Source: a virus
Lineage: Duplodnaviria > Caudoviricetes
Virus record (IMG/VR): IMGVR_UViG_3300049825_000745
Span: 539 to 64,538 of that record
Direction: 5' to 3' (one strand)
Length of the DNA: 64,000 bases
Shown: one piece after another, positions 36,889-63,997 of the stretch
Layout of the letters: each line of letters starts with the position of its first letter
How positions within the stretch are numbered: the stretch's first letter is position 1
Notes under the pieces: model-generated
The model's database searches: none
What the model was told of the DNA's origin: nothing
What the model saw: only the letters and a program-made list of their open reading frames with translations
Made by a program: the position numbers and the translations under genes

Positions 36889-37141
36889 TTGACAATTGCC
36901 CACCCGACGAGACGAACAATGAGTGCAAGATTTTTGATATAATCTATATGTGTTGTACACCAATGCCATAAGCGAAAACCAAGCTAACAGGTATGTGTCC
37001 AAGCAAAGATTTGAGTCTTGGGAACCAGGACTCCTGCCCTTGGAGGGTATGTAAGACCAAACGGACTACGGAGTCTTGGCGGCAATGCCCGTTGAATTGG
37101 GAAGCCCACACTGTACCGAAGGTCAGTGTGTGGTAGTTCAC
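36889..37141 (+). mobile_element. IS605-derived omega/reRNA cassette copy 1 (253 bp, no left-end hairpin)
   Basis: Preceded by TTAG (36885-88); ends GAAGCCCACACTGTACCGAAGGTCAGTGTGTGGTAGTTCAC; matches 55083-55335. Confidence 0.88.
36935..36943 (+). promoter_or_regulatory. Extended -10 promoter TGnTATAAT (present in all four cassette copies)
   Basis: TGATATAAT about 200 nt upstream of the TCAC end. Confidence 0.7.
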
Positions 37142-37349
37142 ACGTACTCTCAATTACAACTAGCAGACTCGTCTCTTTGCGCCACATGGAGGGTTTTTAT
37201 GATGTTTTGAACTTTTTGACAGGGGAGGATTTATTCACTCATCAATTAATCCGAGCGTCGCAGACTTGTACGTCATATTTATTTAAGACTTATCCCGTTT
37301 TATCTGACCCGCAAATCAATTTACAGCATTTTTGGCGCATCAAAAACCT

Positions 37350-37640
37350 TCAAAAATCTATAACCTCCAAGGCTTCGCCCTCGGGGAACGGTTTGCCTCC
37401 TTCGGTTACGAAATTAACCTGACACCCAAAAGCTCTGAGTTCACGCGCTCGGAGCTTTTGCATGGGCGATATCTCCCCGTTAGGGGCTTTTACTTCCACC
37501 CATGACGCTATGCAAGTTTTCTTGTCAATTAAAAGTAAATCTGGCGTTCCCGATTTGTTGCAACGAATAATATTGGTTACGTCATAGCCTTGGCTTTCGT
37601 ATAGCTTGGTGAGTTTTTCCTGAATTGTTGATTCAAGCAC
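37350..37640 (-). CDS. VRR-NUC domain nuclease
   Basis: ESTIQ...GTPDLL...WVEVKAPNG..SPMQ. Confidence 0.88.
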   Translation of the reverse strand: MLESTIQEKLTKLYESQGYDVTNIIRCNKSGTPDLLLIDKKTCIASWVEVKAPNGEISPMQKLRARELRAFGCQVNFVTEGGKPFPEGEALEVIDF

Positions 37641-38893
37641 GGATAATCTCTCTTGAAGTGTGCAGCAGTGTAAGTCTTTTTACCTTGGACAACTTTATAT
37701 ATTTTCTCCTCAATACCTCCAGATGAAAACAACCAATAGATATGAGACTCACGGCGAGTATTAGTAGTAAGGCGATCGCGTGCCTGAAAATACGAGGTTG
37801 CTGAGTGTTGTATATTGTAAAAAATAATTAATTCCCCAGCCGAAAGATTGAGTCCTTCGCGTCCCGAAACTACCTGTAGGACAATGCTTTTGTCGGTCGT
37901 TTGAAACGTTTCTAGGTCAGTTGTGACGCGATCGCCCAACACTGATTTAATTGCTTGCAGCTCGTGCTTAAACACATAAAAGATCACTAACTTCTCTGTA
38001 GGCCAATTATCCGCAATATACCGCGCCTTAGCATCGCTCAACATTACGGACTGGCGCGGTTCTCCCTCAACCTCATCTAAGATGATGCTGCCACTATGGA
38101 TCTGATGGACTTTTTGGAGTAACGCCGCTGGGTTCTCCGCGCTGATGGTGCCTGTTTTGCCCTGAACTACGCCATCGGTCATTAGGCGATCGGCTATGGT
38201 TTTGCAGATTGGGGCCATTGGAACTTCGCAGAAATGCTCGTGGAGCTGGACTAAAAAATTTGCGTCTTTTTGGGTGTAACGAACCATGTATGGCTCAATT
38301 ACAGGTAGTATTTTTTCTTTAATGCCGTCGCTGTAGTCGTTGCAGACACCGTGAGCAAATGTCCTTTGCTTGACATTAACGTAATTGGGCTTCTGTGCAT
38401 TCCCCGCCCATTTGTAAAAAGTAGGCTCGGTGAATGGCGATTTTTTTGATATCCAGAATTGAAAAAATATAGCCGAAAATCCCTCCGGCGTTGGCGTTCC
38501 CGACAGAAGAATTATAGGTAGATGACTAAACCGCTCTCGAAGGTCTTTTGCTCCTTTGCTGGGCTTTGGGAACGCGCCGCCCAGTCGATGCGCTTCATCC
38601 ATTACCAATAGGTCAAACTCACCTTCAACTTTGTGCAAGCTTTCGTTGTTTGCAACGGTCAGCTCATACCCTGGATTCAGTAGAGCATAGTCGCCCTCAA
38701 TACTGGCGATCGCCTTTTTCTTTGTCAAAAACAGCACGCGCTTAGCCCCATATAACCGAGCGCATTCTAAAGCTGTTAGAGACTTGCCAGTACGAACTTC
38801 CATCGCAAGATAGACTATTCCCAACTCTTGCAATTTTTTACAAGCTACCTTGGACAATTCAATCTGATATGGGCGAAGCTCAAACTCACTCAT
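37577..38893 (-). CDS. SNF2-like SF2 helicase
   Basis: LRPYQ, EVRTGKS, MDEAH, LSGTP, SGREGLNL, QARDR. Confidence 0.9.
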   Translation of the reverse strand: MSEFELRPYQIELSKVACKKLQELGIVYLAMEVRTGKSLTALECARLYGAKRVLFLTKKKAIASIEGDYALLNPGYELTVANNESLHKVEGEFDLLVMDEAHRLGGAFPKPSKGAKDLRERFSHLPIILLSGTPTPEGFSAIFFQFWISKKSPFTEPTFYKWAGNAQKPNYVNVKQRTFAHGVCNDYSDGIKEKILPVIEPYMVRYTQKDANFLVQLHEHFCEVPMAPICKTIADRLMTDGVVQGKTGTISAENPAALLQKVHQIHSGSIILDEVEGEPRQSVMLSDAKARYIADNWPTEKLVIFYVFKHELQAIKSVLGDRVTTDLETFQTTDKSIVLQVVSGREGLNLSAGELIIFYNIQHSATSYFQARDRLTTNTRRESHIYWLFSSGGIEEKIYKVVQGKKTYTAAHFKRDYPCLNQQFRKNSPSYTKAKAMT

Positions 38894-39090
38894 CGCTTCA
38901 CCACCACCCCACAGATCCGCTCAATCTTCGGCCAATACCCTTTAGGCACCTTTTCATGTCCTGCCCTATCCTTCAGCGTTAATATCTCTTTCACCCCATC
39001 TTTGCGAAACGTCATGTGGGTTCCCGTCCGAGCGCGGCGCAACACCCAGCCAGAGGCTTCAAGGTGTCGCAGCAGTTCTTTATGGGCCAT
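38890..39090 (-). CDS. hicA: HicA-family toxin-like protein
   Basis: KELLRHLEASGWVLRRARTGTHMTF...VPKG...I. Confidence 0.7.
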   Translation of the reverse strand: MAHKELLRHLEASGWVLRRARTGTHMTFRKDGVKEILTLKDRAGHEKVPKGYWPKIERICGVVVKR

Positions 39091-39377
39091 ATCTCCAAAG
39101 CCCTCTTAATCGCCGCCTTTCCTAGCCCAACAGCTTCACAGCCCGCTTTGGTTGCATAAAAAAACTGCATATCACCATTGAGCCTTCGGCCTTTAACAAC
39201 AAACCCCGCAACTTCCATCTGAAGCATCGAAATGTGATCTTCGCTGCCAAGGCTTGCACAAAACTGATTTCTACACCCGTGCTGTTCCTCGGGAATATGG
39301 GATCCAGCGCCAAGCATATGGATTAGGTTTTCTCTCCAAAGCGGCTTAAGCTCTATCAGTAGTTCTTTGTGCGTCAT
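39012..39377 (-). CDS. Hypothetical phage protein
   Basis: HMLGA....RNQFCA...M...GF....FFYAT..G pattern. Confidence 0.55.
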   Translation of the reverse strand: MTHKELLIELKPLWRENLIHMLGAGSHIPEEQHGCRNQFCASLGSEDHISMLQMEVAGFVVKGRRLNGDMQFFYATKAGCEAVGLGKAAIKRALEIWPIKNCCDTLKPLAGCCAALGREPT

Positions 39378-39559
39378 TTGGTCGTTTCAACCCCATCAAT
39401 ATAAACCCTCACTTTCCCAGTTTTGGTCGAATAAATTTGCACGCTAGCCCTAGGAGTGATCACCCCCAACAAACCCCAGCCTTTGCGATCGTCGCTGGCG
39501 CTTCGTTGAACCCTAAGACTGCCCCATTCGAAACCGTAATCCGTATTTTTGAAATGCAT
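39374..39559 (-). CDS. Hypothetical protein
   Basis: 61 aa; ATGA overlap with next gene. Confidence 0.5.
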   Translation of the reverse strand: MHFKNTDYGFEWGSLRVQRSASDDRKGWGLLGVITPRASVQIYSTKTGKVRVYIDGVETTK

Positions 39560-39601
39560 TGGGTATGGTATAGTGTAAATCTGATGTTAATTGTAACACA
39601 T

Positions 39602-39760
39602 ATGCCGCAGATTGAAAGTAGTATTGAGCGCAGTCCGTTACAGGTTGCCATTGACCCTGGATTGAAGAAGAAAATTATTGAAGTAGCAAAGCGTGAGGGC
39701 ATTTCTCAGGCTGAGGTGATGCGCCGCGCATTTGTTTTTTACTACGCTAGCCAGAATTAA
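39602..39760 (+). CDS. Ribbon-helix-helix (CopG-like) regulator
   Basis: LQVAIDPGLKKKIIEVAKREGISQAEVMRRA; divergent from the helicase operon. Confidence 0.75.
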   Translation: MPQIESSIERSPLQVAIDPGLKKKIIEVAKREGISQAEVMRRAFVFYYASQN

Positions 39761-40279
39761 ATGCCGTACAGCAGGCGGTTCATAGACGATATTCGAGCAA
39801 CTGCCAATATCGCCCAAATTGTCAGCGAGGTTATTGAGTTAAAAGCCTATCCAGGCGATCGCCATAAGGGGCTATGTCCGTTCCATAACGAGAGCAGCCC
39901 TAGTTTTTCTGTGAGCAAAAATTTATATTACTGTTTTGGATGCGGTGAAGGTGGGGACGTGATCCGGTTTGTGGAGCGCACCCAGGACGTATCCTTTGGC
40001 GCTGCCGTTAGGTTATTGGGCGATCGCTACAACCTCACGGATGATGATTCTACCCCCGTGAGGCCACGACCGCCCGTAAAGCGAGCCTTGCCGCCCATGC
40101 AGCAGCCTAAGGGGTACGTTGCGCCGATTGACCCTATTGTGGCGGCATACGATCCGTATGCCGCTCAACTCTTTGATGATTTGTATCAGCCCGATTTTGA
40201 CCTTTTATTAACGCTGGGGATTGTCCCTAGCTCTTTAGCTCTGGAGCTTTTGAACGATGTCAGTTTGTCCCATTTGTAA
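39761..40279 (+). CDS. CHC2 zinc-finger (DnaG N-terminal-like) protein
   Basis: GLCPFHNESSPSFSV...YYCFGCGEGGDVIRFV. Confidence 0.88.
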   Translation: MPYSRRFIDDIRATANIAQIVSEVIELKAYPGDRHKGLCPFHNESSPSFSVSKNLYYCFGCGEGGDVIRFVERTQDVSFGAAVRLLGDRYNLTDDDSTPVRPRPPVKRALPPMQQPKGYVAPIDPIVAAYDPYAAQLFDDLYQPDFDLLLTLGIVPSSLALELLNDVSLSHL

Positions 40280-42080
40280 CGGATCGGATACGTGTCAGGT
40301 TGACGAAGTTTTAGTGATTTGTCGAGCAGCCAAGAAAAGTAAGCCAGTGTCGGGATATCGAGCAGTACATGAGGCTGTTCGCGGTGGGGGCTGGGTTTGG
40401 GAGCCTGTGAAGGTTTTGGCTGAGGTAGTGACTAACGGCAATGGCAATGGGCATAAGCCTGCAGATGCGGTGGGGTTTGAGCCTTTGGTGGACGGGGATG
40501 AACCGCAGGCCAAAGAGTCTACTAATTCTAAAGGCATTGGCGATGACGATGGGAGAACGTTTAACCAGAAAGCTCATGAAAAGCTTTACAGCCAAAACAA
40601 ATGGGTTTGCTTTTCTAACGATCTTTATATCTGGGAGGGAAATTATTATAGGTTAGTGACTGACGATGAAGAGATCCCTAGAATACAAGTTTTTTGTGAC
40701 TCCTATACCGAAGACAAAGCTATAGGAAGAGGAGCGAAGCAGCAGGTCATAACAACATATCCATACGCTAATCCTCGTTCAGTTTTGGACGTTTTGAAGT
40801 GGGTAAAGATGAAGTACACAAAGGATATGTGTTTTGTTAATCCACCTGGGATTAATTGCAGCAATGGAGTGGTCAACCTTCTTTGGGTTGGGAAAACATT
40901 GACTGTAGAACTTGTAAATCACGACCATTCAGTTCATTACTATATTTCAAAACCAAGCGTAAAATACGATCCAAAAGCAAGCCCAAAATGTTACGAAAAA
41001 ATGATGGAGTGCTTAGACGATGGCGCTAGGCAAATTTGGGAAAGAACCATAGCTGCATCCATTGATATGCCTACAATCCGAAAATATGGTAGTAGAACAG
41101 TAAAGGCTTTATTCTTAAAAGGCGATGGGTCTAACGGGAAGGATTCATTAAAGCGAATCACTCAAATATTGTTTGGGCGTGGCGCTATGTCTGCATGTTC
41201 ATGCACAGATTGGCAGCAATACGATGAGGGCAGATATTTTACTATTTACCCATTGCAAGGAAAGAGAATTAATTGGCCTTCAGAAAACGCTGATGCTGGC
41301 AGAATAGACAGGCTTCAAGGGCTTAAGGCTGCTATCACTGGAGATGAAATTATTTTCGAGAGGAAGGGCAGAGACCCTCAGTCGGGAGAGCCTCAAGCCG
41401 TGTTTCTTTTTAATATCAATGAGAACCCTAATTTATTGGCACAGCTAAAGGCCAATGCTAGCCGTTGGGCGATCATTCCTTTTGATAAAACGTACTCAGA
41501 CAACCCAGGAGTAGGGGAACTTAAGGCTGATTCAAGATTTAAGGATGACCTTGAATTCTTGAATCAGAATGTAGTCCCAGCTTTTTTGAACAAGATTTTG
41601 GAGCAACTTCAGAACGTTGTTAGAGACGGCATTGACTACAGCCCAGTGCAAGAAACGATGGACTCATTGCAAAAAGACTCATGCCATCTTCTGCGGTTCG
41701 CAGAAGACGAAGGACTAAGGTATATCCCAAATAACACTATTACCCCTAGCGAAATCTGGGATCGTCTCAAGGCTTGGTACATCAGTGAGGGGATTCTTAC
41801 GATTGATCATGCATACAACAAGCTTGAGTCAGCGGAAAAAAACGTATGGGTGTCTCAGGCCAATCCCCTTGACCATAACGTCAAGGGGGCTAATCAGGTC
41901 ATGACTCGCTTTCTTGAGCTTTTCCCAAAAGCAAAGCAAGGATCAGGCTTAGATAAAAACAAAAACAAAAAGCTACACATCATAGGGCTAGGGTTTGAGC
42001 CAAAACAGACTCCAGTAATCCCAGTCCCAGAGACAGGCCCGACCCTTCCCGGCCCTGATGACTATGTTTATGAAGGGTAG
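40257..42080 (+). CDS. Phage primase-helicase (D5/P4-like SF3 helicase)
   Basis: N-terminal CPIC..C; INCSNG; Walker A GDGSNGKDS; LKAAITGD; IIPFDK. Confidence 0.85.
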   Translation: MSVCPICNGSDTCQVDEVLVICRAAKKSKPVSGYRAVHEAVRGGGWVWEPVKVLAEVVTNGNGNGHKPADAVGFEPLVDGDEPQAKESTNSKGIGDDDGRTFNQKAHEKLYSQNKWVCFSNDLYIWEGNYYRLVTDDEEIPRIQVFCDSYTEDKAIGRGAKQQVITTYPYANPRSVLDVLKWVKMKYTKDMCFVNPPGINCSNGVVNLLWVGKTLTVELVNHDHSVHYYISKPSVKYDPKASPKCYEKMMECLDDGARQIWERTIAASIDMPTIRKYGSRTVKALFLKGDGSNGKDSLKRITQILFGRGAMSACSCTDWQQYDEGRYFTIYPLQGKRINWPSENADAGRIDRLQGLKAAITGDEIIFERKGRDPQSGEPQAVFLFNINENPNLLAQLKANASRWAIIPFDKTYSDNPGVGELKADSRFKDDLEFLNQNVVPAFLNKILEQLQNVVRDGIDYSPVQETMDSLQKDSCHLLRFAEDEGLRYIPNNTITPSEIWDRLKAWYISEGILTIDHAYNKLESAEKNVWVSQANPLDHNVKGANQVMTRFLELFPKAKQGSGLDKNKNKKLHIIGLGFEPKQTPVIPVPETGPTLPGPDDYVYEG

Positions 42081-42390
42081 TACCCAGTTGTACCCAGGTA
42101 GTACCCACTTACGTACCCACCTAAAAACGTGTGATCTATAGCCTGAAGGGGTTCCGTATCTAGTAGTACCCAGATCGCCTATTTTACCCTATACACGCGA
42201 GAGAGTTAAAAAAAAAGATGTACTACATAAAAAGATTAAAAAAGCAAAAAATAACTAAAACCTCCAGCGATAGGGGGCATTTTTGGCGATCTGGGTATGT
42301 GTGGGTACGGAACCTTTACGGGGCAAAGGTTCCAGAAAAAAAAGTGGGTACACCGATGGGTACTACCTGGGAACACCTGGGTACTACTAT
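42076..42390. repeat. Large imperfect inverted repeat of GTACCC iterons, putative replication origin
   Basis: Left arm TAGTACCCAGTTGTACCCAGGTAGTACCCAC...TACCCAGATCGCC; right arm GGCGATCTGGGTA...GGGTACTACCTGGGAACACCTGGGTACTAC; A-rich centre. Confidence 0.7.
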
Positions 42391-42487
42391 TTGTTACATA
42401 GCTTGATACAAAAAAAATGACTTAAAAAATATTTAGCGTACTACATTCAAAAAAGATTGCGTACTACATTGGGCAAGTCTGCGGCCT

Positions 42488-42793
42488 TTGCCCATCCGTA
42501 AAACAGGCACCTACACCGCCACAGCCACAGACCAGCAGCATTTTGCCCCGTTCGGCATTACGTTGAAGCTCAAGATTGTTGAATGCGATCGCGCCATAGA
42601 AGGGGCTACTGTGGGCACAGGAAAAGTCAGGGCTATCCTGGCAGACCGTAAGGCATTAGAACAGGCGTACAAGGCGCATCCAACGGCTGATGAAGACCTG
42701 CTAGCTAAGTTCATAGAGGCTTTTCTCTGCACCTATGGAGCGGGGAAACCGCTCAAACCCCTAGGTTGGGGTGCTTTTTGTTTGTTATACTAA
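42488..42793 (+). pseudogene. C-terminal remnant of a BRO-family gene
   Basis: Starts PIRKTGTYTATATDQQ, a near-copy of the end of the BRO-N gene at 43177-43235. Confidence 0.5.
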
Positions 42794-42877
42794 GTATACT
42801 ATTCAAGTTTGACGTAGCTTGATGGTGCAATAACATATCATCTGTTATGATAATTATGTTATTCACTTTGGGGTTGC

Positions 42878-43243
42878 TTGATGGCTCTCACTATTGCATC
42901 TAGTCTTGAATTTTCATCTCAATCGTTTACCGTTTACCTTGATCCTGATAATGAGACTTGGTTCCAGGGGCTTGAATCGTGCAATCAGTTGGAATTAACT
43001 AACCCTACCTTGACTCTTCAGCGTCATGTTTCACCACAGTATCGGTGTCAAATCGCAGATGGACGCGGAAAGCCAGCATGGTTTATCAAAGAACCAGGAC
43101 TTTATCAGTTGATTTTTGCTTCTAAGTCTGAACGCGCTGAAAAATTCAGAGAATGGGTATTCAAAGATGTCCTCCCCACCATCCGCAAAACAGGCTCATA
43201 CACCGCCACAGCAGCCGACCAGCAGCTTTTCTTTGGAGCTTAG
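42878..43243 (+). CDS. BRO-N domain antirepressor-like protein
   Basis: EPGLYQLIFASKSERAEKFREWVFKDVLPTIRKTGSY. Confidence 0.9.
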   Translation: MMALTIASSLEFSSQSFTVYLDPDNETWFQGLESCNQLELTNPTLTLQRHVSPQYRCQIADGRGKPAWFIKEPGLYQLIFASKSERAEKFREWVFKDVLPTIRKTGSYTATAADQQLFFGA

Positions 43244-43245
43244 TC

Positions 43246-43680
43246 ATGAAAGCCATCCTTAAATTAAACGGGAAAGCCGCCAAAGCCCTCTCCTACAACA
43301 CCTCATCTGTCACCCTAGCCACCAAGTCCGGCAAGCCCGACATTATCACCTGGGCGGACGTAGACTACCTCGTCGGCGATGACGGCCTAGAGCGTCACCG
43401 AGAGGTCGTAGAGGGCACGCCCAAAATCATCGTCCAGGCACCCAAAGATCCTCGATGGGGATCCATGGCGATCGCCCCAACCCAACCAAACCTATTCGCA
43501 CCCCCGCTAAAATGCCCTCAGGATGATTTTGAGGATGCGATCACCTTGATAGATGCCATCGACAATGACGATGTGCGTGAGGCTGTGCGGGGGGTGCTAA
43601 CGGCAACGTTTGAGGGGGAGGAGAAGCGGAAGCTTTGGGGGATGTTGAGTTTTGATCAGAAAGCGAGGTTGAAACATTGA
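43246..43680 (+). CDS. Hypothetical protein
   Basis: MKAILKLNG... begins right after the BRO stop. Confidence 0.55.
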   Translation: MKAILKLNGKAAKALSYNTSSVTLATKSGKPDIITWADVDYLVGDDGLERHREVVEGTPKIIVQAPKDPRWGSMAIAPTQPNLFAPPLKCPQDDFEDAITLIDAIDNDDVREAVRGVLTATFEGEEKRKLWGMLSFDQKARLKH

Positions 43681-43744
43681 TTTCTTGCCAAACCCCCAAT
43701 CTTGTGTGTACAATGGACGCATACTATAGAGAGTTGAATCTGTT

Positions 43745-44020
43745 ATGTCTCAGGCCCAAGTTCTTGATAAGCCGTGCACCGAAATCAGCCCATCCTTGGG
43801 GCAGGTCATCTGCATTCATCCCCATGCAGATAAGGCAAGCCACGTCTATTATTTTGATGCGTTGGTTTCCCACAAAGATCACCTCGAACGCCGTCAAGTT
43901 TTGGTTGTTTCTCCAAGCGACTCGCTTGCCGCCGTCAACAGAGCGGTTTGGGCTGAGTTAGGCGATCGCTGGTTCTGCGTTCAATTTCGAGTCAGGAGAA
44001 AAAACAATGCCACGCGGTAA
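43745..44020 (+). CDS. Hypothetical protein
   Basis: TTGCCA...TACAAT promoter-like signals upstream; overlaps next gene. Confidence 0.5.
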   Translation: MSQAQVLDKPCTEISPSLGQVICIHPHADKASHVYYFDALVSHKDHLERRQVLVVSPSDSLAAVNRAVWAELGDRWFCVQFRVRRKNNATR

Positions 44021-44147
44021 ACGATTTGTGATGTGGTTAGTTGGCCATGACGAAGCAATTTTTGCTGCATTGAAACTAAAATTTCCGAGTCTTAAAAAAG
44101 CTCAGATTGTCAGGATAGCACTGCAAACATTATTGGACTCGGAATAA
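44007..44147 (+). CDS. Small RHH-like protein (46 aa)
   Basis: MPRGKRFVMWL...SLKKAQIVRIALQTLL; AGGAG RBS; TAATG overlap with next ORF. Confidence 0.55.
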   Translation: MPRGKRFVMWLVGHDEAIFAALKLKFPSLKKAQIVRIALQTLLDSE

Positions 44148-44331
44148 TGGCCACACGAATTAATCTAGAAGGCCAGCGGCAAAAAGACGGTCGCCTGACC
44201 GCTATCAAATAGACCTCCAGGAGTCCCGCGCTGTACCTGTACTCAGGTCAGCGTCGGGAGGAATGGAGATCTATTTGAGAAAGATGATTTTTACAAAGCA
44301 AAAAAGTATCAGAGCTGGAATTTTCACATGA
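44147..44331 (+). pseudogene. Short ORF interrupted by a 60-bp palindromic insert
   Basis: MATRINLEGQRQKDGRLTAIK* resumes YLRKMIFT...IFT* if the insert plus one TA is removed; restored stop overlaps the next ATG (ATGA). Confidence 0.6.
44212..44271. mobile_element. 60-bp mini-element: TA duplication, short terminal inverted repeats, IS605 left-end hairpin inside
   Basis: TA|GACCTCCA...CCCGCGCTGTACCTGTACTCAGGTCAGCGTCGGGA...TGGAGATC|TA; core identical to the reverse complement of about 1512-1546. Confidence 0.7.
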
Positions 44332-44528
44332 CACAACTTAGGCCGTTTGCCAAATACGCCAAGCAATTTCAATGGTTCACAACTGTTGTGACGCGGCTCC
44401 AGCCCGACTATGTTGGGGTTGCGTGGAGCATCGCCCATCGAGAGGGACTGGAACATGCGATCGCATTTTGCGAGACCAAGATCCAAGACTCTCAACTGAT
44501 GCAGGCGTATCGAGACTCTGAATTTTGA
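44328..44528 (+). CDS. Hypothetical protein
   Basis: 66 aa; ATGA-coupled. Confidence 0.45.
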   Translation: MTQLRPFAKYAKQFQWFTTVVTRLQPDYVGVAWSIAHREGLEHAIAFCETKIQDSQLMQAYRDSEF

Positions 44529-44800
44529 TCAATTTCCTCCTCCAGTGGGCACAGTAAACGTATACCCACTGGAGACAACCCATGAACTTAAATCAAAGCA
44601 TCTTGCGCATTCGAGAAGCTGGCAGCAATGCAAAACGCTCGATACTCTGAGGTTGAAGCACTTTTCTCGCAGCCTGCCACCCATGTTGAGGCAGCGGCGA
44701 TCGCCCAACTAAAAAATATTTTTGGATAGGGGCTTGACAATGCCTAGAAAATACTAGATACTGAAAGAGTACCAGCTTGACAAACAAAGGGAAACGACCA

Positions 44801-44944
44801 ATGGCTAAAACTGACGAAGAACTCAAGACAATCCACAGTCGGCTAACTTGTTGGATCAAGGCTGAGCCTAGGCAGTGGAAAGATTTGGAGGCTTTCCTTG
44901 GGGCCATGGGGTATCAGATGAAGATTTTCAAAAAAGCCGAATAG
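44801..44944 (+). CDS. Small protein, paralog of 48109-48318
   Basis: MAKTDEELKTIHSRLTCWIKAEPRQWKDLEAFLGAMGYQMKIFKKAE. Confidence 0.55.
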   Translation: MAKTDEELKTIHSRLTCWIKAEPRQWKDLEAFLGAMGYQMKIFKKAE

Positions 44945-45277
44945 AGCCCTTGACAAACTCGATTTAAGGAAGCTTTGCAAATGAAAAAAGTCCTAGTGGC
45001 AAGCGCAATTATCGCCAGTTTGATTTGGTTGGCGATCGCATGGAATCTCAAACAGCAGGATGAGGATTACCCCAATGGATTTTAATTCGGTGAATATAGT
45101 CACCACCGGAAAAACCGGAAATTGCGGCACGTACCTAAAGCACAAGCATGGCGGTCGCCCCTTACTTATTCGCTTGGTATCCTTTGAGGGTCCTTTCCTC
45201 CATGGACAAAATCGAGGCCGCAATTACGTTGTCCTCGCAGAAGATTACGAACCATATCGCTCAACGAGATAGCAGAG

Positions 45278-45325
45278 TTGACATAATCCCCCGCGTCGCT
45301 TAACTGCGAACGCGGGCGTTAACCA
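45278..45325 (-). mobile_element. Orphan IS605-type right-end-like hairpin
   Basis: Minus strand GCCCGCGTTCGCAGTTAAGCGACGCGGGGGATTATGTCAA; related hairpin at about 48345-48380. Confidence 0.45.
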
Positions 45326-45386
45326 TAGACGCTCAGCCACTCTGTACTACGATAAAATCAAGTCACTGTAGCCAAGAGAAAATTTA

Positions 45387-45932
45387 ATGGGTCTCGGTTC
45401 TATCCCTTTTGAGCGCTCGATCGTTCGCAAAAAATCGACTCAGTTTCGGTTTGATATAGATCCGGTTGTCTATCAAAAGTTTATGGCCGCCATTTATAGC
45501 GGTGTCTCTGTAGATGATTCGGCTTGGTCCGCTGGTGTTCAACCTCGCACCGTTTACTATTGGCTCCAAAAAGGCGAGATACTTTATGAGTCTGATGCAG
45601 ACCTTCCCCCCAGTTCCACGGCGTGGCAATATGCCCGCTTTTTTCACGACTACAAAATAGCGGCGTCCCAAGCGGTTGTTAAACACTCCATAAACATTGA
45701 TAGTGCTAGTATTAAATCTACACCAACAAACTGGACAGCAAGCGCGTGGAAGCTCGAAAGACTGCGCCCTGAGACTTATTCTCAAAAATATATAATCGAG
45801 AAAATAACGGATAAAAAAGTTCTCGAAGTGGTCAAATTTTTGTTCGAACAATCCCCCGATGACGACTTTAGAGAGAAATTAGCGGGTATTGTGGGCATGA
45901 TCCCAACACTAAAATTGAGCGATGCAGCTTAG
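45387..45932 (+). CDS. Terminase small subunit
   Basis: HTH-like AGVQPRTVYYWL and WTASAWKLERLRPETY; overlaps terL. Confidence 0.7.
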   Translation: MGLGSIPFERSIVRKKSTQFRFDIDPVVYQKFMAAIYSGVSVDDSAWSAGVQPRTVYYWLQKGEILYESDADLPPSSTAWQYARFFHDYKIAASQAVVKHSINIDSASIKSTPTNWTASAWKLERLRPETYSQKYIIEKITDKKVLEVVKFLFEQSPDDDFREKLAGIVGMIPTLKLSDAA

Positions 45933-47680: not shown

Positions 47681-47737
47681 TCATTCTTGCTCACAATTCC
47701 CCGCGTTAGCAGGGGAATTGCTCACTTACTGAGTTAG

Positions 47738-48112
47738 CTCCTAGACGGGAAGCCCCGCGCTCTATCCGCTTCGGATGAGCGTCGGGATGAAAGGCGCGGC
47801 GGTAAGGAGTCCAACCCCCGAACGATTTTGACCAACGCTCAAACAGTGTGCGGGGTTGGCGATGAGCCGCCAAAAGTGTAAGATAGATGCGGTGTAGTCG
47901 CCCACCAAAATGTCTGTAACCATCAGAACCAGCATAGTTTGGGAATGACATGCAATGTCTAGCTCGACCGTGGGTCATCAGGTCGAGGGGAAATAAAGCT
48001 CGTGGAGGAGTGAGGGTTGCCTCGTCCTGTGAAGCGAGAAGCCAAGGATTCCGAAGCCCGCGCTGTATGCTACGCATCAGCGGCGGGTAAGGGAAAGACT
48101 AGGATATGTCAC
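47738..48112 (+). mobile_element. Non-autonomous IS605 derivative (left end, distinct omegaRNA-like region, right end), 375 bp
   Basis: TTAG|CTCCTAGACGGGAAGCCCCGCGCT...GCGTCGGGATGAAAGGCGCG closely matches the left end at 1562; ends GAAGCCCGCGCTG...CAGCGGCGGG...ATGTCAC. Confidence 0.85.
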
Positions 48113-48318
48113 GAGAGTTTTTTGAAAATCTCGATTTGGTACCCCATAGCGTTCAGGAACGCCTCTAAATCCGTCCACTGGCGTGGTTCTGCCCTAATCC
48201 AGCAGGTTAACCGCCTGTGGATGGTTTTGAGTTCCTCATCGGTCTCAGCGGCTAGGGTTTTACTAGCCGCGTAGATGGTGAGGTTTTCGTTGTCTAGGAT
48301 GGTTTGGATGTTGATCAT
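48109..48318 (-). CDS. Small putative DNA-binding protein; stop codon supplied by the element's right end
   Basis: MINIQTILDNENLTIYAASK...RRLTCWIRAEPRQW...; its TGA is the reverse complement of TCA in TCAC. Confidence 0.6.
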   Translation of the reverse strand: MINIQTILDNENLTIYAASKTLAAETDEELKTIHRRLTCWIRAEPRQWTDLEAFLNAMGYQIEIFKKLS

Positions 48319-54248: not shown

Positions 54249-55019
54249 ATGCCCATTGCCGCCCCCACCGCAACAGGCCAAAAGCAGAAGATCGGAGTGC
54301 AGGACTATATCAGTGCTGCTGACGGCGCTCGGTTTGTGCTGCTTCGGACTGACCCCGATCCGGTGGACACCAAGCCGCTAGAGGATGCGATCGCCCTCCT
54401 TGCCACGAACGAAGCCGCAGACGATAAAACGGTAGAAGCCCTCGACAAATTAGTCAAAGCCATTGACCTAAAACCATTGGGCGATCGCGTTACAGCTCTT
54501 GAATCCAAACCCGTAGTCACTACGGATACGGTTATCTCGGACGACGACCCGACTGACGGAGACTGGAAGCACTGGTTTAAGCGACTTTACGACCGAACCG
54601 CATGGAAGATGGCGGTGATCCACTACGTGCAGATCCTCAAGGGGGAAGCGTGGGCCATGAACGCGGCGGACTGGCGAGATATGGCACCTCCGACGCATGA
54701 GATTGCCGCTGAGTTGAGTCCGGGTCGATTTCAGATTACGCTACCAGGTGGTGCTGTTTTTAGCTACGAGACAGGACGAGGCCAAATCCTTGATGGGCTA
54801 GAGTTTCCAGCGGACGTTTATATAGGTGCTCAAACAGAGTACCGTGATGCAGCGGGGGATCTAATCAACCGCACAGCTCGATACCAATCAATTGCACCTG
54901 GAAGTGTTGCGTTAGGAATGGGGCGGTTGGATGCCCCTGCCAATGCTGTAACGGTTGCGGTTATTTTGATCAAACCGGACAATAGTCAAGTTCGGTATCG
55001 GTACCCGTTGCAACCTTAG
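54249..55019 (+). CDS. Putative virion-associated protein
   Basis: GGAGG RBS; short coiled coil; stop TAG lies in the TTAG target of copy 2. Confidence 0.55.
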   Translation: MPIAAPTATGQKQKIGVQDYISAADGARFVLLRTDPDPVDTKPLEDAIALLATNEAADDKTVEALDKLVKAIDLKPLGDRVTALESKPVVTTDTVISDDDPTDGDWKHWFKRLYDRTAWKMAVIHYVQILKGEAWAMNAADWRDMAPPTHEIAAELSPGRFQITLPGGAVFSYETGRGQILDGLEFPADVYIGAQTEYRDAAGDLINRTARYQSIAPGSVALGMGRLDAPANAVTVAVILIKPDNSQVRYRYPLQP

Positions 55020-55335
55020 CTTGAATAGCAGAAGCCCCGCACCCTACCCACCGGATGGGTGTCGGGATGAATGATAAGTGAGTTGACAATTGCCCACCCG
55101 ACGAGACGAACAATGAGTGCAAGATTTTTGATATAATCTATATGTGTTGTACACCAATGCCATAAGCGAAAACCAAGCTAACAGGTATGTGTCCAAGCAA
55201 AGATTTGAGTCTTGGGAACCAGGACTCCTGCCCTTGGAGGGTATGTAAGACCAAACGGACTACGGAGTCTTGGCGGCAATGCCCGTTGAATTGGGAAGCC
55301 CACACTGTACCGAAGGTCAGTGTGTGGTAGTTCAC
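55020..55335 (+). mobile_element. IS605-derived omega/reRNA cassette copy 2 (316 bp, complete with left-end hairpin)
   Basis: TTAG|CTTGAATAGCAGAAGCCCCGCACCC...GGGTGTCGGGATGAA (left end), then the 253-bp unit of copy 1, ending TTCAC|AGGAG. Confidence 0.9.
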
Positions 55336-55348
55336 AGGAGATCGCATC

Positions 55349-55648
55349 ATGAACAACCCCATAGTCGGAACCACGTACAGGCACTGGAAAGGCGACTTAT
55401 ATAGGGCAATTGGCTTTATCCTTATCAAGAACAACTTTCGCGAAGGCATGGCGATCAAAACTGAGTTTGGTTATGCCATTTGCAGTACGCCATTAGCGCC
55501 AGGAGACGAGGCATTTGTCTATCAGTCCGAGGATGGAGAAAAGTTTGTCCGCACGCGCGAGAGTTTTGCCGAGGTACTTGGGGACAAGGATGAGGGGACA
55601 ATGTACTATCAATTTCAACGAATTATGGAAGAGGCGATCGCCCCATGA
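55349..55648 (+). CDS. DUF1653-like protein
   Basis: YRHWKGDLY...VYQS...FVR..ESF; AGGAG RBS. Confidence 0.7.
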   Translation: MNNPIVGTTYRHWKGDLYRAIGFILIKNNFREGMAIKTEFGYAICSTPLAPGDEAFVYQSEDGEKFVRTRESFAEVLGDKDEGTMYYQFQRIMEEAIAP

Positions 55649-56601: not shown

Positions 56602-56602
56602 C

Positions 56603-56647: not shown

Positions 56648-56866
56648 TTGGGTTTGTGCTGCAAAGGTTTTGAGCTTAGCGATCACCCCAGGTGTCCCCA
56701 CCTGTCAGGGCGATCGCTATCACAGTAATGAAAACTGGACAATATTGCTCTTATTGGCCCACTATGCTGTGGACGGCTTTATCGTGTAAACTTAAATCGG
56801 ACATGCTTTTGTACCACCATACAAGAGTGTGTCCACCCATTATAACCACTCATTGCGCGGCATCAG

Positions 56867-57550: not shown

Positions 57551-57560
57551 GAGATTTTTA

Positions 57561-58379
57561 ATGTCCAAGCCAATTTCTCAGGATTATGATTTTCAGGGCG
57601 TCAATCGTCTTCTCAATGTTCCCGCCTCGACTGCGGCTGGTCAGGTTGTTATCCACGAACAGTTGCTAGCTGCTATCGAGGGGCTAGGGTTTAAGGACAA
57701 CGTTCGCGTTCGCACAGCAAATAATATTAACCTTGCTGCGCCTGGGGCTACCCTTGACGGCATTGCAATGAATCCAGGAGATCGCTGGATTCCCGCTGGT
57801 CAAACCTTGCAAACTGAGAACGGGATTTATGTTTGGACAGGGGCCGCAACGCCAGCAACACGCGCCACAGACGCAAGCACCGCCGATGAACTAGAGTCTG
57901 CGATTGTTACCGTAGACGAAGGCACCAGCGCTGGGACTACATGGCGACAAAGTACGGTTGATTTTGTCCTTGGGACTGGAAACGTTGTTTGGACGCCGTT
58001 TGGGACGGGCACACCAGCCGCTTCAGAAACAATTGCAGGCGCTATTGAAATTGCAGATCAAACCACCGAAGCGGATGGTGGCACAGACGATACCCGCGCA
58101 ATGACGCCTAAGAAAGTCAGAAATCTTTCTTACCTAACCATTACCAAGAAATTTACAATAGGTGATGCAACAGCTACAAGCCACACGATCGCCCATAACT
58201 TTGGGACCAAAGATGTTGGCGTCTTAGTCCGCGAAGCCACGGGGTTAGAACGAGATATGGACTGCGAAATAAACCGAAACACTGCCAGCCCATTCAACAC
58301 GGTAATAGTTAAGGCAACCCCCGCGATCGCCCTTAATGGAGCAATTGTTTACGTCACTCGCTTAGGGATTGTGACTTAA
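57561..58379 (+). CDS. Putative head/tail fibre structural protein
   Basis: KDNVRVRT.NINL...LDG...GDR...QT..TENGIYVW...RATDA; HNFGTKDV. Confidence 0.7.
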   Translation: MSKPISQDYDFQGVNRLLNVPASTAAGQVVIHEQLLAAIEGLGFKDNVRVRTANNINLAAPGATLDGIAMNPGDRWIPAGQTLQTENGIYVWTGAATPATRATDASTADELESAIVTVDEGTSAGTTWRQSTVDFVLGTGNVVWTPFGTGTPAASETIAGAIEIADQTTEADGGTDDTRAMTPKKVRNLSYLTITKKFTIGDATATSHTIAHNFGTKDVGVLVREATGLERDMDCEINRNTASPFNTVIVKATPAIALNGAIVYVTRLGIVT

Positions 58380-59502: not shown

Positions 59503-59507
59503 TCTTG

Positions 59508-60903: not shown

Positions 60904-60967
60904 AATGGGTAGGGGTCAGTGACCAATTTGATTATACCAAAAATGAACATTGAATCTAATAGGGCTG

Positions 60968-61744
60968 TTAGAAGTCGCGGCGTGACAGTGAGCAGCCCCA
61001 GAGTTCTCCTTCAGCTTTTCTTCGTCTGCGTAAGCCCGACTCAGTGGAGGTGCCAGGGTTAACGTAAAGGGAGATTGCCGCAGGGACAGCATCCCAGCTT
61101 TGTTTTTCAATGCATTTATTCAGCGTATTGAACCCATCGGCTCCAAAAGTCCACCCAGTGTTAAACGAAAAACTTAGCAATGCCCCTCGCTGCCCATCGG
61201 TAATTTCTGCCCATCTAGGCGTTGTTTTGGCTAGATGGTTCCAGAATGCTTTGAGATGAAAGCGCAATAAATCCTCAGCTTCTTGCTGAGTTATGCGATC
61301 CCCTATCTGAACCTTTCGCCCATCCTGATAGAAGGTTGCGCCATATCCAATGGTGCAAACGCCTACACCGTCGTCATAGGCATCTAATTCGCATCCTTCA
61401 AACTCTTTGATTAGATTGATGGCCTGTTGTGGGATTTTCTTTTCAGCCTGTGCTTCCGTGATGTGTAAAGCCCCTACCGCTGGACTTGATACGGTAGGGG
61501 TTAGGCTTTTTTTGGAAGAATCCAGTAGCCACACGGCGGTTGTGGGGCCAATATTATTCCCTCCAGAAAGAGAATATTTTTGCTTGAATTGAACCAATGC
61601 ATTTTGTGTTGCGGAGTTGTAAACTCCATCTGCAATAATGGAAAACCCATGCGCTACAAGGACTTGCTGAACTTCTTTGCAAAGCACAGGATCGTTTGAT
61701 AGCTCAGAGAAGGGGATTGAAGTCTTGAGATCTTTTAGTTGCAT
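60968..61744 (-). CDS. Endolysin (PG-binding domain plus GH24 lysozyme)
   Basis: ADGVYNSATQNALVQFK; LIKEFEGC.L.AY.D..GV.TIGYG; ALLSFSFNTG; GLRRRRKAE. Confidence 0.93.
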   Translation of the reverse strand: MQLKDLKTSIPFSELSNDPVLCKEVQQVLVAHGFSIIADGVYNSATQNALVQFKQKYSLSGGNNIGPTTAVWLLDSSKKSLTPTVSSPAVGALHITEAQAEKKIPQQAINLIKEFEGCELDAYDDGVGVCTIGYGATFYQDGRKVQIGDRITQQEAEDLLRFHLKAFWNHLAKTTPRWAEITDGQRGALLSFSFNTGWTFGADGFNTLNKCIEKQSWDAVPAAISLYVNPGTSTESGLRRRRKAEGELWGCSLSRRDF

Positions 61745-61956
61745 ATTTTTGATATAATCTATATGTGTTGTACACCAATGCCATAAGCGAAAACCAAGCT
61801 AACAGGTATGTGTCCAAGCAAAGATTTGAGTCTTGGGAACCAGGACTCCTGCCCTTGGAGGGTATGTAAGACCAAACGGACTACGGAGTCTTGGCGGCAA
61901 TGCCCGTTGAATTGGGAAGCCCACACTGTACCGAAGGTCAGTGTGTGGTAGTTCAC
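61739..61956 (+). mobile_element. IS605-derived omega/reRNA cassette copy 3 (218 bp, no left-end hairpin)
   Basis: TTAG|TTGCAT plus 212-bp core, ending TTCAC. Confidence 0.88.
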
Positions 61957-61961
61957 TTCAC

Positions 61962-62723
61962 TTATTCCACTTTAACGCGATGCACCCAAGCGCCTTTACG
62001 CATTGAGTCAAGTTCGCGCTTTTGATAGATGGCGATCGCGTCTGAAACTGATTGTCCCGCAACAATGGCAGCATATAACCCGTGGGCACTGTAATCGCCA
62101 TCGTATCGATCAACGCTGGGATTATTGTAAGCCCATGCCCCAAAACTGAACTCTGACCACGGATCCTTAACGCTGATTTTGTAACTCATGTTTGACGGGT
62201 CTATCGTTACACCATCTAAGCAAATCACATGGCCCGACCCGGTGAACCAGCCGTGAGTGATTAAAAACTCTCCTGCTTTTAGCCACTCTCTAATTTCAGA
62301 AAGACAGGCATTGTCATCGAAGATATAACGATCACCTAAAGCTTTTTTGAGCAGGACTCCCATCACTCCAGGGTTTCCAGGCTCTCCGATGTCTTCTAGC
62401 TCTGCCCGAATCTGCATGATGTCCGTGCGTCCCGTAGCCATTGCGATGCAGGTTGATTGACAGGTGTAGGCGTTGGGCTGAGATAACAAGCCCTTTGCTT
62501 CTAAAACCTGTTCGGCAAACGTGCCAGACACGCCCTGAGGCTTCGTCTTGACTGGCATCGGTAACGGGACAGGCGCGTTACCGTCTAGATCAAGCGCAAT
62601 AGTATGCGGACGGCTGGGAAGCAAAGGATCTCCAGTAGGAGATTTTTTTACAGTAACTTTAGACGTGAAAAACCCGTCCACCATGTAATACAAAATGCCG
62701 TCTTTATACAGTCCCCAAGCCAT
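61962..62723 (-). CDS. C39-like cysteine peptidase (candidate second lysin)
   Basis: QPNAYTCQSTCIAM, HGWFTGSGHVI, VKDPW. Confidence 0.8.
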   Translation of the reverse strand: MAWGLYKDGILYYMVDGFFTSKVTVKKSPTGDPLLPSRPHTIALDLDGNAPVPLPMPVKTKPQGVSGTFAEQVLEAKGLLSQPNAYTCQSTCIAMATGRTDIMQIRAELEDIGEPGNPGVMGVLLKKALGDRYIFDDNACLSEIREWLKAGEFLITHGWFTGSGHVICLDGVTIDPSNMSYKISVKDPWSEFSFGAWAYNNPSVDRYDGDYSAHGLYAAIVAGQSVSDAIAIYQKRELDSMRKGAWVHRVKVE

Positions 62724-63301
62724 TAGTTTTGCTCCTGTGCGATCGCCGCCAAATCTAACAGACTAATTTTACTACCTCTAGTCAATCCCTCTAGTTCAGG
62801 GTTTGGCGTGGGGATAGGGTTAGGGGGAAGGTGTAACTTCGTCCCTATTTCAACGGGGGCCAGGGCTACACTTTCAGGCCCATTATCAGCGGGAAACTGT
62901 TCCTGCTTTTGAACTGTATCAGGCGTAACTAGCTGCCCAGTCGTGGCCTTTTCTGCCAAAAGAACTTCTGCCCCCGTCATAAACACTTGATACAGCGCGT
63001 CTTTTTTATTTCGCCCTGGTTTGCCGTCTGGGGTGTAGTTGTAGGGGCGGCAAGCGTGGTCAGCGTATAGCGCCGCTCCTACTTTTTTGTTGCCCGTATA
63101 AAACGCTGTGAGCGCAATTACAGCAACGCCAGGTGTAACATATTTCTGGATTTGGGGAGGCAGCAATGCCCCTACTCCAATCTGGTCGAGGAAGGCAACG
63201 CCCCCCGCAATCCCCGCGACTAAATTGCTAAATCTTCTCAACCACTTAACCTGGGAAATCGTAAATGATTCATCAATTAACTTGGGCGGCCTGACGTCCA
63301 T
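62723..63301 (-). CDS. Two-TM membrane protein, candidate holin
   Basis: Two hydrophobic segments near the N-terminus; first gene of the lysis operon, TAATG-coupled. Confidence 0.45.
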   Translation of the reverse strand: MDVRPPKLIDESFTISQVKWLRRFSNLVAGIAGGVAFLDQIGVGALLPPQIQKYVTPGVAVIALTAFYTGNKKVGAALYADHACRPYNYTPDGKPGRNKKDALYQVFMTGAEVLLAEKATTGQLVTPDTVQKQEQFPADNGPESVALAPVEIGTKLHLPPNPIPTPNPELEGLTRGSKISLLDLAAIAQEQN

Positions 63302-63779
63302 AAAAATCCTCGTTTTATCTAATATTATCCTTTAGAGTCCCGATATGCTTGCATCAGGTAAGTATATCGGGACTTTATTTACGTTCCAAATACGCTTTCT
63401 AGTTGGGCGATCACCGCTGCATCAATCGAAGCGGTTTTCTGCCCAAAGAAGTCGTCGAGCTTTATTCATATTAGCGCAAAGCCTTGCCCTGACTGCTTCT
63501 TAGTATTTCTTCGTTTCAGCAGTTCTAGAGTAATTTATAAACAATGGGGCATTAAATGCCGCACCCCAATGATCAACCCTGACATACTCAGCAGGAACAT
63601 GATCTGGACGGTTCGACTCAGATTCTTTCAGTAACAATGTAAAATCAATATCGGACATGCTTTGTTGCTCCAAAGTGTGTCCCCCTATTCTAACAGGCTC
63701 CCACCACGCCGGACCCCTTCAACCCTGACCCCATGCCGAGATCGCCAAGAACATGCTACGGTAACAAAGGACGATTTAG

Positions 63780-63997
63780 TTGCATATTTTTGATATAATC
63801 TATATGTGTTGTACACCAATGCCATAAGCGAAAACCAAGCTAACAGGTATGTGTCCAAGCAAAGATTTGAGTCTTGGGAACCAGGACTCCTGCCCTTGGA
63901 GGGTATGTAAGACCAAACGGACTACGGAGTCTTGGCGGCAATGCCCGTTGAATTGGGAAGCCCACACTGTACCGAAGGTCAGTGTGTGGTAGTTCAC
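63780..63997 (+). mobile_element. IS605-derived omega/reRNA cassette copy 4 (218 bp, no left-end hairpin)
   Basis: TTAG|TTGCAT plus core, same as copy 3 but with different flanks. Confidence 0.88.

What the first reader, a model, noticed from the sequence alone, without database searches (positions are those of the whole stretch)
36889..63997. Dispersed set of promoter-driven TnpB guide-RNA cassettes in a phage, with different guides
Seen: an identical 212-bp core at 36930, 55124, 61745 and 63786, all on +. It contains an extended -10 (TGATATAAT), about 190 nt resembling a tnpB 3' tail (translates ..LSLGTRTPALGGYVRPNG..*), and an IS605 right-end hairpin ending TCAC. The 3' flanks are ACGTACTCTCAATTAC, AGGAGATCGCATCATG, TTCACTTATTCCACTT and ACG.. 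(cut by the edge). All follow TTAG, as does the tnpA/tnpB element at 1-1562. Known: TnpB reRNA is the right-end scaffold plus about 16-20 nt of flank as guide, and its TAM matches the TnpA target. Inference: these protein-less cassettes form a multiplexed trans guide set programming a TnpB to cut TTAG+flank, the empty allele of related phages. That would be a distributed CRISPR-like homing or phage-competition system. I found no other guide targets in the window by eye. Whether the resident TnpB is cognate is unknown because its 3' end is off-window.
Basis: partly seen in the sequence, partly recalled or inferred. Interest (0 to 1): 0.9.

Follow-up and report, generated by a model that had tools for sequence, protein, structure and literature searches.

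The report
Miniature IS605 guide-RNA elements in cyanophage
The four identical repeats are protein-less miniature copies of a cyanobacterial IS200/IS605 transposon that keep a promoter and the guide-RNA scaffold, a known kind of selfish element that has multiplied inside a phage genome rather than a new CRISPR-like system.

Summary
An identical 212-nt core occurs four times on the + strand, at about 4.1-4.6x the phage's unique depth in the source sample.

The cores are non-autonomous IS200/IS605 elements (PATE/MITE type). Core positions 89-212 are 73-76% identical to the 3' tail plus right end of full-length tnpB-only IS copies in Nostocaceae genomes. tnpB-less relatives, 78-89% identical, sit in many of those genomes. 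They share a conserved extended -10, an RNA-like fold with compensatory changes, an invariant TAGTTCAC end and unrelated 3' flanks.

- Copy c2 keeps a full left end after TTAG.
- c1, c3 and c4 lack the left-end hairpin but abut TTAG exactly.
- The phage's own TnpB is only about 32% identical to the family whose tail matches the core, so it is probably not the partner. Its TnpA could plausibly move the copies.

That such elements encode guide RNAs needing TnpB in trans is already in print (PMC10055086). Cutting of empty alleles in co-infecting phages is a plausible by-product, not shown. Interest is moderate.

The parts
36889..37141 (+). c1: miniature element without left-end hairpin (253 nt). 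TTAG at 36885-36888, TGATATAAT box at about 36935-36943, right end TAGTTCAC at 37134-37141, putative guide from 37142 (ACGTACTCTCAATTAC..).
55020..55335 (+). c2: complete miniature element (316 nt). It follows TTAG at 55016-55019, which contains the stop of ORF 54249-55019. The left-end hairpin GAAGCCCCGCACCC..GGGTGTCGGG is at about 55031-55067, then the 256-nt repeat. The putative guide from 55336 is the RBS and start of ORF 55349-55648.
61739..61956 (+). c3: short form (TTGCAT plus core, 218 nt) after TTAG at 61735-61738. It lies between two - strand genes, the endolysin 60968-61744 and ORF 61962-62723. Putative guide from 61957.
63780..63997 (+). c4: short form after TTAG at 63776-63779. 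Its last 125 nt are repeated at the start of the full record (127-nt terminal overlap). The flank continues off-window as ACGCAGCAGG...
1..1562 (-). Resident autonomous IS605-type element. The left end is at 1562 after TTAG (1566-1563 on the - strand). tnpA is 1008-1421 (+). tnpB runs on the - strand off the window's left edge. The full 444-aa frame and a right end ..GTATGTCAC lie in the 538 nt before the window.
47738..48112 (+). Second miniature element (PATE-B, 375 nt) after TTAG at 47734-47737, just downstream of terL. Its left and right ends resemble those of the resident IS, and no ORF is conserved.
44222..44279 (+). Solo left-end-like hairpin. 35 nt (44225-44259) are identical to the resident IS left-end hairpin. 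It ends ..TTTGAG.

Best explanation
The repeats are non-autonomous IS200/IS605 miniature elements (PATE/MITE type) of a family common in Nostocaceae. They are deletion derivatives of a tnpB-only IS. Each keeps a promoter just inside the left end, a short relic of the tnpB body, and the last ~135 nt (tnpB tail plus right-end hairpin) that forms the omega-RNA scaffold.

How they likely arose and work:
- They entered the phage from a cyanobacterial host.
- A Y1 transposase inserted them 3' of TTAG in intergenic spacers. The phage's own TnpA is a candidate, because its element shares the TTAG target, the TCAC end and the GAAGCC hairpin foot.
- Three copies then lost the left-end hairpin exactly at the TTAG boundary and are probably immobile now.
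- Each copy probably makes a ~190-nt RNA that runs into its own 3' flank.
- With a cognate TnpB supplied in trans, most likely host-encoded, that RNA would direct cutting of TTAG+flank, the element-free allele. This favours retention or copying of the element.

Shown: homology, anatomy, family distribution, RNA-type covariation. Inferred: transcription, TnpB loading, cleavage, who mobilised the copies, and how the left end was lost.
For: Homology to full-length IS:
- Core positions 89-212 are 73-76% identical to the 3' ends of intact tnpB genes of 406-442 aa. These end ..GAATTGGGAAGCC-hairpin-TAGTTCAC.

tnpB-less relatives:
- All 8 exact matches of the hairpin in the genome collection were examined. 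None has a tnpB of 100 aa or more within 2.5 kb upstream, but 3 of the 8 lie at a contig start or next to a masked stretch.
- 45 distinct host copies were collected. 44 of them plus c1 were aligned; L059, whose right end is truncated, was left out.

Promoter:
- TGNTANNNT sits at the expected place in 35 of 45 host copies and in the three phage copies checked (c1-c3; c4 has the same core).

RNA-type fold outside the transposase hairpin:
- 98.5% of cells are paired.
- 8 pairs changed on both sides, against 0.9+/-0.8 in shuffles (0 of 500 reach it) and 0-5 in slid controls.
- Several G-U pairs are conserved.

Right-end hairpin:
- It varies by compensatory sets while its flanks stay invariant.

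Insertion sites:
- The c2 left end aligns with the left ends of the resident IS and PATE-B, each directly after TTAG.
- Removing c2 leaves stop codon, AGGAG, 8 nt, ATG, a normal gene junction.

Copy number and prior print:
- Core pieces have depth 1280-1359 against 295-313 for unique phage DNA in the source run.
- The concept is already in print (PMC10055086).
Against: - No RNA data: no RNA run holding the phage was listed.
- No element-free allele or excision joint was seen. Only the c1 site was laid, on contigs.
- Three of four copies lack the left-end hairpin that canonical TnpA transposition needs, yet c3 and c4 share the same short form at two sites. Their spread is not explained by the textbook mechanism.
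- The closest full-length tails are only 73-76% identical, so no exactly cognate TnpB was identified.
- The phage TnpB is 32% identical to that family.
- The fold came from RNAalifold on the same alignment, which favours it.
- Many copies may share recent ancestry, which inflates conservation.
Confidence: 0.8

Rival explanations
1. One reading: the cassettes are a selected, multiplexed guide set. The phage uses it, with its own or a host TnpB, to cut and convert or exclude related phages that lack the insertions. This would be a distributed RNA-guided homing or competition system.
For: - With the resident IS and PATE-B there are six TTAG-linked sites spread over the genome.
- The promoter box is conserved.
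- Three copies appear fixed in place, having no left-end hairpin.
- The phage carries a TnpB with an intact D-E-D alignment.
- Homing into co-infecting phages is considered possible in a 2026 review (PMC13565253, passages and Table 1 read).
Against: - The same family, left-end-less copies included, sits in bacterial chromosomes. Nothing about it is phage-specific.
- Flank guides arise automatically on insertion.
- The phage TnpB is not of the matching family.
- No relatives with empty sites were found. Viral relatives reach at most 54% protein identity, and the metagenome scans were empty.
- No benefit to the phage is shown.
Confidence: 0.1
2. Passive debris with a side effect: the copies are inert as guides. 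They matter, if at all, as portable promoters or as 212-nt direct repeats that drive recombination in the phage genome.
For: - c2 and c4 sit directly upstream of + strand ORFs with the promoter box pointing into them.
- Four perfect direct repeats lie within 27 kb.
Against: - c3 points against its neighbouring genes.
- The whole ~190-nt body, not only the promoter, is conserved with RNA-type covariation across the family.
- No deletion joints were seen, though only the c1 region was laid.
Confidence: 0.08
3. Assembly artefact: the repeats, or their number, come from host-derived reads mis-joined into the phage contig.
For: Both ends of the record lie inside the core, with a 127-nt overlap. CheckV rates the record at 73% complete.
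Against: - Three copies are fully bridged inside the contig with unique phage flanks.
- In the source run the core pieces have about 4.1-4.6 times the unique phage depth. The loose ends at the core edges are exactly the flanks of c2 and of c3/c4.
- terS, terL, portal, protease, major head, tail, primase, helicase and lysin are all present.
Confidence: 0.02

Closest known systems
Palindrome-associated transposable elements (PATEs): minimal non-autonomous IS200/IS605 elements, as noted for Geobacillus stearothermophilus (Meers et al. preprint, PMC10055086; passages read)
   Same: - No protein gene.
- IS605-type ends.
- Insertion 3' of a fixed tetranucleotide.
- They carry the omega-RNA region, so they need TnpA and TnpB in trans.
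   Different: - Here they are in a phage, in four identical copies.
- They carry their own conserved extended -10 box.
- Three of four lack the left-end hairpin.
Omega-RNA / reRNA of IS605-family TnpB (ISDra2 type; named from my own knowledge and from abstracts listed)
   Same: - The scaffold is made of the tnpB 3' tail plus right end.
- The guide is expected from the flank beyond the TCAC end.
- The target would be TAM plus flank.
   Different: - It is not followed or preceded by a tnpB gene.
- It has an extra conserved ~65-nt 5' module.
- Expression and binding are untested.
- No Rfam family matches.
IS200/IS605 elements in cyanophages: tnpB in Anabaena phage A-1(L) (bioRxiv 10.64898/2026.02.14.705889, abstract and passages read), and TnpB-like gp49 of Microcystis phage Mic1 with a host IsrB element inserted into it (PMC11237433, passages read)
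   Same: Host IS605-family elements move into cyanophage genomes. The phage here also has a tnpA/tnpB element.
   Different: Those reports concern protein-coding copies. The passages I read do not describe protein-less guide-RNA copies in several sites.
Homing endonuclease genes of T-even phages, and 'transposon non-restorative homing' (review PMC13565253, passages and Table 1 read)
   Same: The predicted outcome, if TnpB is loaded, is cutting of the insertion-free allele of a co-infecting genome and copying of the element.
   Different: Recognition would be by RNA guide, with the nuclease encoded elsewhere. Nothing of this is shown for these copies.
CRISPR arrays
   Same: Several different guides share one scaffold.
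   Different: - There is no repeat-spacer array and no acquisition machinery.
- Guides are fixed by the insertion site.
- The copies are dispersed.
This is not a member.

Membership tests
IS200/IS605 non-autonomous element (PATE/MITE) | Right end with subterminal hairpin and fixed terminal motif, homologous to a full-length IS | tested here: met
   All 4 of 4 copies end GAATTGGGAAGCC-hairpin-TAGTTCAC. They are 73-76% identical over core positions 89-212 to the tnpB-bearing relatives.
IS200/IS605 non-autonomous element (PATE/MITE) | Left end with subterminal hairpin | tested here: inconclusive
   Present in c2 only, where it aligns with the left ends of the resident IS and PATE-B. Absent in c1, c3 and c4.
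IS200/IS605 non-autonomous element (PATE/MITE) | Insertion 3' of a conserved tetranucleotide, without target duplication | tested here: met
   TTAG precedes c1, c3 and c4 directly, and precedes the left end of c2. The flanks are unrelated, with no duplication seen.
IS200/IS605 non-autonomous element (PATE/MITE) | No protein gene inside | tested here: met
   The only frames are 65-69 aa on the - strand, inside the repeat itself. The family alignment has single-base indels.
IS200/IS605 non-autonomous element (PATE/MITE) | Mobilised by a Y1 TnpA in trans | not testable with these tools
   A Y1 transposase gene is present in the phage (PF01797, E 5.9e-44). Shared TTAG/TCAC and hairpin foot make it a candidate only.
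TnpB omega-RNA (reRNA) | Scaffold derived from the tnpB 3' end plus right end, with conserved secondary structure | tested here: met
   Homology. Fold: 8 pairs with changes on both sides against 0.9 in shuffles, and conserved G-U pairs. The fold was derived from the same alignment.
TnpB omega-RNA (reRNA) | Transcribed, with a 3' guide of about 16-20 nt from the flank | not testable with these tools
   No RNA run was listed. The promoter box is conserved in 35 of 45 host copies.
TnpB omega-RNA (reRNA) | Cognate TnpB available in the same cell | tested here: inconclusive
   The phage TnpB is 32% identical to the matching family. In one search, 76 of 151 Nostocaceae genomes matched at E<=1e-100, and about 25 by my reading had a best E below 1e-200. 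The phage's host is unknown.
CRISPR array | Tandem repeat-spacer units with adaptation genes | tested here: not met
   The copies are 2-18 kb apart. No cas-like gene appeared among the 29 window ORFs scanned, but not all ORFs were scanned.

The most novel reading that the evidence does not exclude
The left-end-less copies are 'locked' guide-RNA genes. TnpA deleted the left-end hairpin by cutting at the TTAG boundary and at an internal TGAG pseudo-site, so they can no longer excise. Together with the resident IS and PATE-B they give the phage six RNA-guided cut sites. With a host or phage TnpB, these destroy or convert insertion-free relatives during co-infection, an RNA-guided analogue of T4 marker exclusion.
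Probability: 0.1. Interest if true: 0.75.

Novelty: new member of a known kind. Interest (0 to 1): 0.42.

Why it matters
- It gives a well-delimited natural case of TnpB-less guide-RNA elements riding on a virus, next to an autonomous tnpA/tnpB element.
- It offers a convenient system to test whether omega-RNAs work in trans, and whether they bias inheritance between co-infecting phages.
- It defines a widespread Nostocaceae miniature-element family with its own promoter. Genome annotators would otherwise miss it or mistake it for a small RNA gene.
- The exact TAM-abutting loss of the left end, seen in both phage and host copies, hints at a transposase side reaction that immobilises such elements.

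Tried and rejected
- **Rfam:** no family matched at gathering score in the window. Only a chance miRNA match (E 8.8) appeared around c1.
- **Phage collections:** blastn of the 256-nt repeat against INPHARED phages gave no match. An exact 37-nt pattern in IMG/VR gave none.
- **Empty-site search:** relatives of the endolysin (77 loci) and helicase (80 kept of 139) reach at most 54% identity. The 318-aa neighbour of c2 has none. None of the 157 viral loci (1.0 Mb) holds the core or the IS ends.
- **Metagenome contigs:** a protein scan with ORF 57561-58379 and an exact 50-nt core pattern were both empty.
- **Sequencing runs:** no RNA holder was listed.
- **Laid contigs of four runs on 30000-46000:** no joints, and no contig of the related phages bridges the c1 site.
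- **Secondary guide targets:** none with 2 or fewer mismatches over 16 nt, and the weaker matches lack TTAG.
- **Guide matches in host genomes:** not searched.
- **Co-occurrence of the miniature elements with the matching TnpB:** abandoned, because the DNA search also hits full-length IS tails.
- **Other TnpB subfamilies (52-61% identical):** their tails are more distant from the core, at 68-70%.
- **Origin of the 5' module:** it aligns at one place in tnpB in 6 of 8 relatives, but the local score is only about 2 sd above shuffles, so this is tentative.
- **Earlier findings of the scan:** not open.
- **Papers:** supplements were not consulted. The extended data on PATEs in PMC10055086 may bear on novelty.


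Full report
**What the window is**

The window is 64,000 of the 64,538 nt of an IMG/VR virus record whose ends overlap. The genes found are:
- portal, head protease and tail proteins J and L;
- helicase, primase-like protein, endolysin and a C5 methylase;
- terS, terL and major head protein.

The cyanobacterial octamer GCGATCGC occurs 79 times against 1.2 expected. It is therefore a tailed phage, and the octamer plus the host range of the repeat family (below) point to a cyanobacterial host.

**The observation**

The repeat finder and an alignment show four + strand copies of an identical 212-nt core at 36930, 55124, 61745 and 63786. c1 and c2 share 256 identical nt. c3 and c4 share only TTAGTTGCAT before the core.

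The 127-nt terminal overlap of the record lies inside the core. The partial copy at the record's start is therefore c4 seen again if the genome is circular.

In the probable source run, unique phage contigs have word depth 295-313 and the two core pieces have 1280 and 1359, about 4.1-4.6 times the unique depth. The loose ends at the core's edges are the upstream flanks of c2 and of c3/c4. The repeats are real.

**What the core is**

An exact search of one genome per species found the hairpin in Cuspidothrix, Dolichospermum and Kastovskya. In all 8 hits no tnpB of 100 aa or more lies within 2.5 kb upstream, although 3 of the 8 sit at a contig start or next to a masked stretch.

A DNA search of 151 genomes of that family hit 57 at E<=1e-10. 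The hits fall into two kinds.
1. Short stand-alone copies, 78-89% identical and starting at or near the promoter box.
2. Matches to core positions 89-212 at 73-76%. In 10 of the 12 examples I fetched, these are the 3' ends of tnpB genes that are intact or degraded. Eight of them carry an uninterrupted frame of 406-442 aa from MYRA.. to the right end.

Their tails read ..ALGTSASALGGDVRPKSSGRKKS.., and the core reads VLGTRTPALGGYVRPNG.. in the matching frame. The core is thus the tnpB tail plus right end of an IS200/IS605 element, preceded by ~75 nt that the full-length tail lacks.

That 5' part aligns best, at one and the same place in 6 of 8 full-length relatives, with the tnpB stretch encoding ..AYENQVICVEDL... 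The score is only about 2 sd above shuffles, so I treat it as a tentative relic.

**Family anatomy**

Of 45 distinct host copies collected, 44 plus c1 were aligned; L059, with a truncated right end, was left out. The shared features are:
- a TGNTANNNT box, present in 35 of 45 host copies and in the three phage copies checked, c1-c3;
- a highly conserved ~190-nt body;
- the invariant string GAATTGGGAAG before the hairpin;
- a hairpin whose two arms change together (CCCACACTG/CAGTGTGTGG, CTCAGACTT/AAGTCTGAG, CCCCGTCCGT/ACGGCGGGG and others);
- the invariant end TAGTTCAC, followed by unrelated sequence.

Outside that hairpin, a fold of four helices is paired in 98.5% of cells. It has 8 pairs with changes on both sides, against 0.9+/-0.8 in shuffles (0 of 500 reach it) and 0-5 in slid controls. 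Several G-U pairs are conserved. G-U pairs make sense only for an RNA of this strand.

Two caveats apply. The fold came from the same alignment, and the copies are related to one another.

No Rfam family matches.

**The left ends**

c2 is a complete element. After TTAG (55016-55019, which includes the stop codon of the upstream ORF) comes CTTGAATAGCAGAAGCCCCGCACCC..GGGTGTCGGGATGAA..GTGAGTTGA. This aligns with the left ends of the resident tnpA/tnpB element and of a further miniature element at 47738-48112, each of which also starts right after TTAG. Removing c2 would leave stop codon, AGGAG, eight bases, ATG, which is an ordinary gene junction.

c1 begins at the TTGACAATTG that follows an internal GTGAG in c2. 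c3 and c4 begin at TTGCAT, which corresponds to the stretch after a second internal ATGAG. All three abut TTAG directly and have no left-end hairpin.

Three host copies (L014, L015, L085) are likewise truncated and directly follow TTAA.

A solo hairpin at 44222-44279 has 35 nt identical to the resident left end and ends in TTTGAG.

My inference, untested, is that the transposase sometimes cuts at the TTAG boundary and at an internal TGAG and rejoins the ends. That would delete the hairpin module and leave an immobile copy. The alternative, insertion of already truncated circles, fits the textbook mechanism less well.

**The partner proteins**

The resident element has a Y1 transposase (PF01797) and a TnpB with all three Pfam domains. 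The D, E and D positions align with those of the other family.

Its right end, recovered from the 538 nt before the window, is ..GAAGCCCGCGCTG..CAGCGTCGGGAGTATGTCAC. It has the same architecture as the core but a different sequence. The protein is 32% identical to the family whose tail matches the core.

I therefore think the phage TnpB is probably not the partner of these RNAs. The phage TnpA could still move them, since it shares the TTAG target, the TCAC end and the GAAGCC foot.

Close homologues of the matching TnpB were searched in the same 151-genome sample. 76 of 151 matched at E<=1e-100, and about 25 by my count had a best E below 1e-200.

**Function**

By position, a transcript from the conserved box would carry the scaffold and then the local flank. 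With TnpB it would recognise TTAG+flank, which exists only where the element is absent. That is the published logic of IS605 retention.

The Meers et al. preprint already states that PATEs often encode omega-RNAs that need TnpB in trans (PMC10055086, Discussion passage). A 2026 review lists co-infecting phages as possible targets of 'non-restorative homing' (PMC13565253).

I found:
- no second target of any guide in the record;
- no RNA data;
- no empty alleles.

The phage-competition idea therefore remains a possibility (about 0.1), not a finding.

**Novelty**

IS605-family genes in cyanophages are known (bioRxiv 10.64898/2026.02.14.705889; PMC11237433). IS200/IS605-type miniature elements have been reported in some eukaryotic viruses (PMC6004678).

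My six completed literature searches turned up no description of this Nostocaceae family, or of several protein-less guide-RNA copies in one phage. Those searches cover open-access text only, and I read no supplements.

I rate it a new member of a known kind, with one unexplained twist: the left-end loss exactly at the TAM.

Noticed in passing
window 47738-48112: A second, different miniature IS605 element sits just after terL. Its ends resemble those of the resident tnpA/tnpB element, and it has a TGTAAGAT box of its own. Its flank would be a further guide.
   Followed up: partly
window 44222-44279: A solo left-end-like hairpin has 35 nt identical to the resident IS left end. Contigs of the source run break here, and their loose ends read into the resident IS left end.
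   Followed up: partly
window 44804-44935 and 48118-48249: A 132-nt inverted repeat (77% complementary) brackets the terS/terL module and PATE-B. Shorter inverted pairs lie at 45283/48345 and 45318/47629. It could mark an invertible or recombining segment.
   Followed up: no
record bases 142-387 (before the window) and window 1563-1648: A small + strand ORF downstream of c4 appears interrupted by the right end of the resident IS. Without the IS it would end ..RLDMKPKS, just upstream of the portal gene. I read this by eye.
   Followed up: partly
window 3808-4302: About 40 tandem copies of a 12-nt unit lie inside the - strand ORF 3230-4459.
   Followed up: no
window 17142-17471: A perfect-to-99% tandem duplication of 165 nt lies inside the 3084-aa ORF 13913-23167.
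   Followed up: no
whole window: All four cassettes, PATE-B and the solo hairpin are on the + strand, and only the autonomous IS is on the - strand. This may reflect the strand bias of IS200/IS605 insertion relative to replication.
   Followed up: no
L033-L039, L038 (Cuspidothrix loci): Several truncated tnpB remnants of another subfamily (tails ..TSGTGDKACRPEVSRSNRGRKKSTTVLSAGQEA..) end in a hairpin 88-91% identical to the last ~42 nt of the core. Related right ends are therefore shared among several IS subfamilies.
   Followed up: partly
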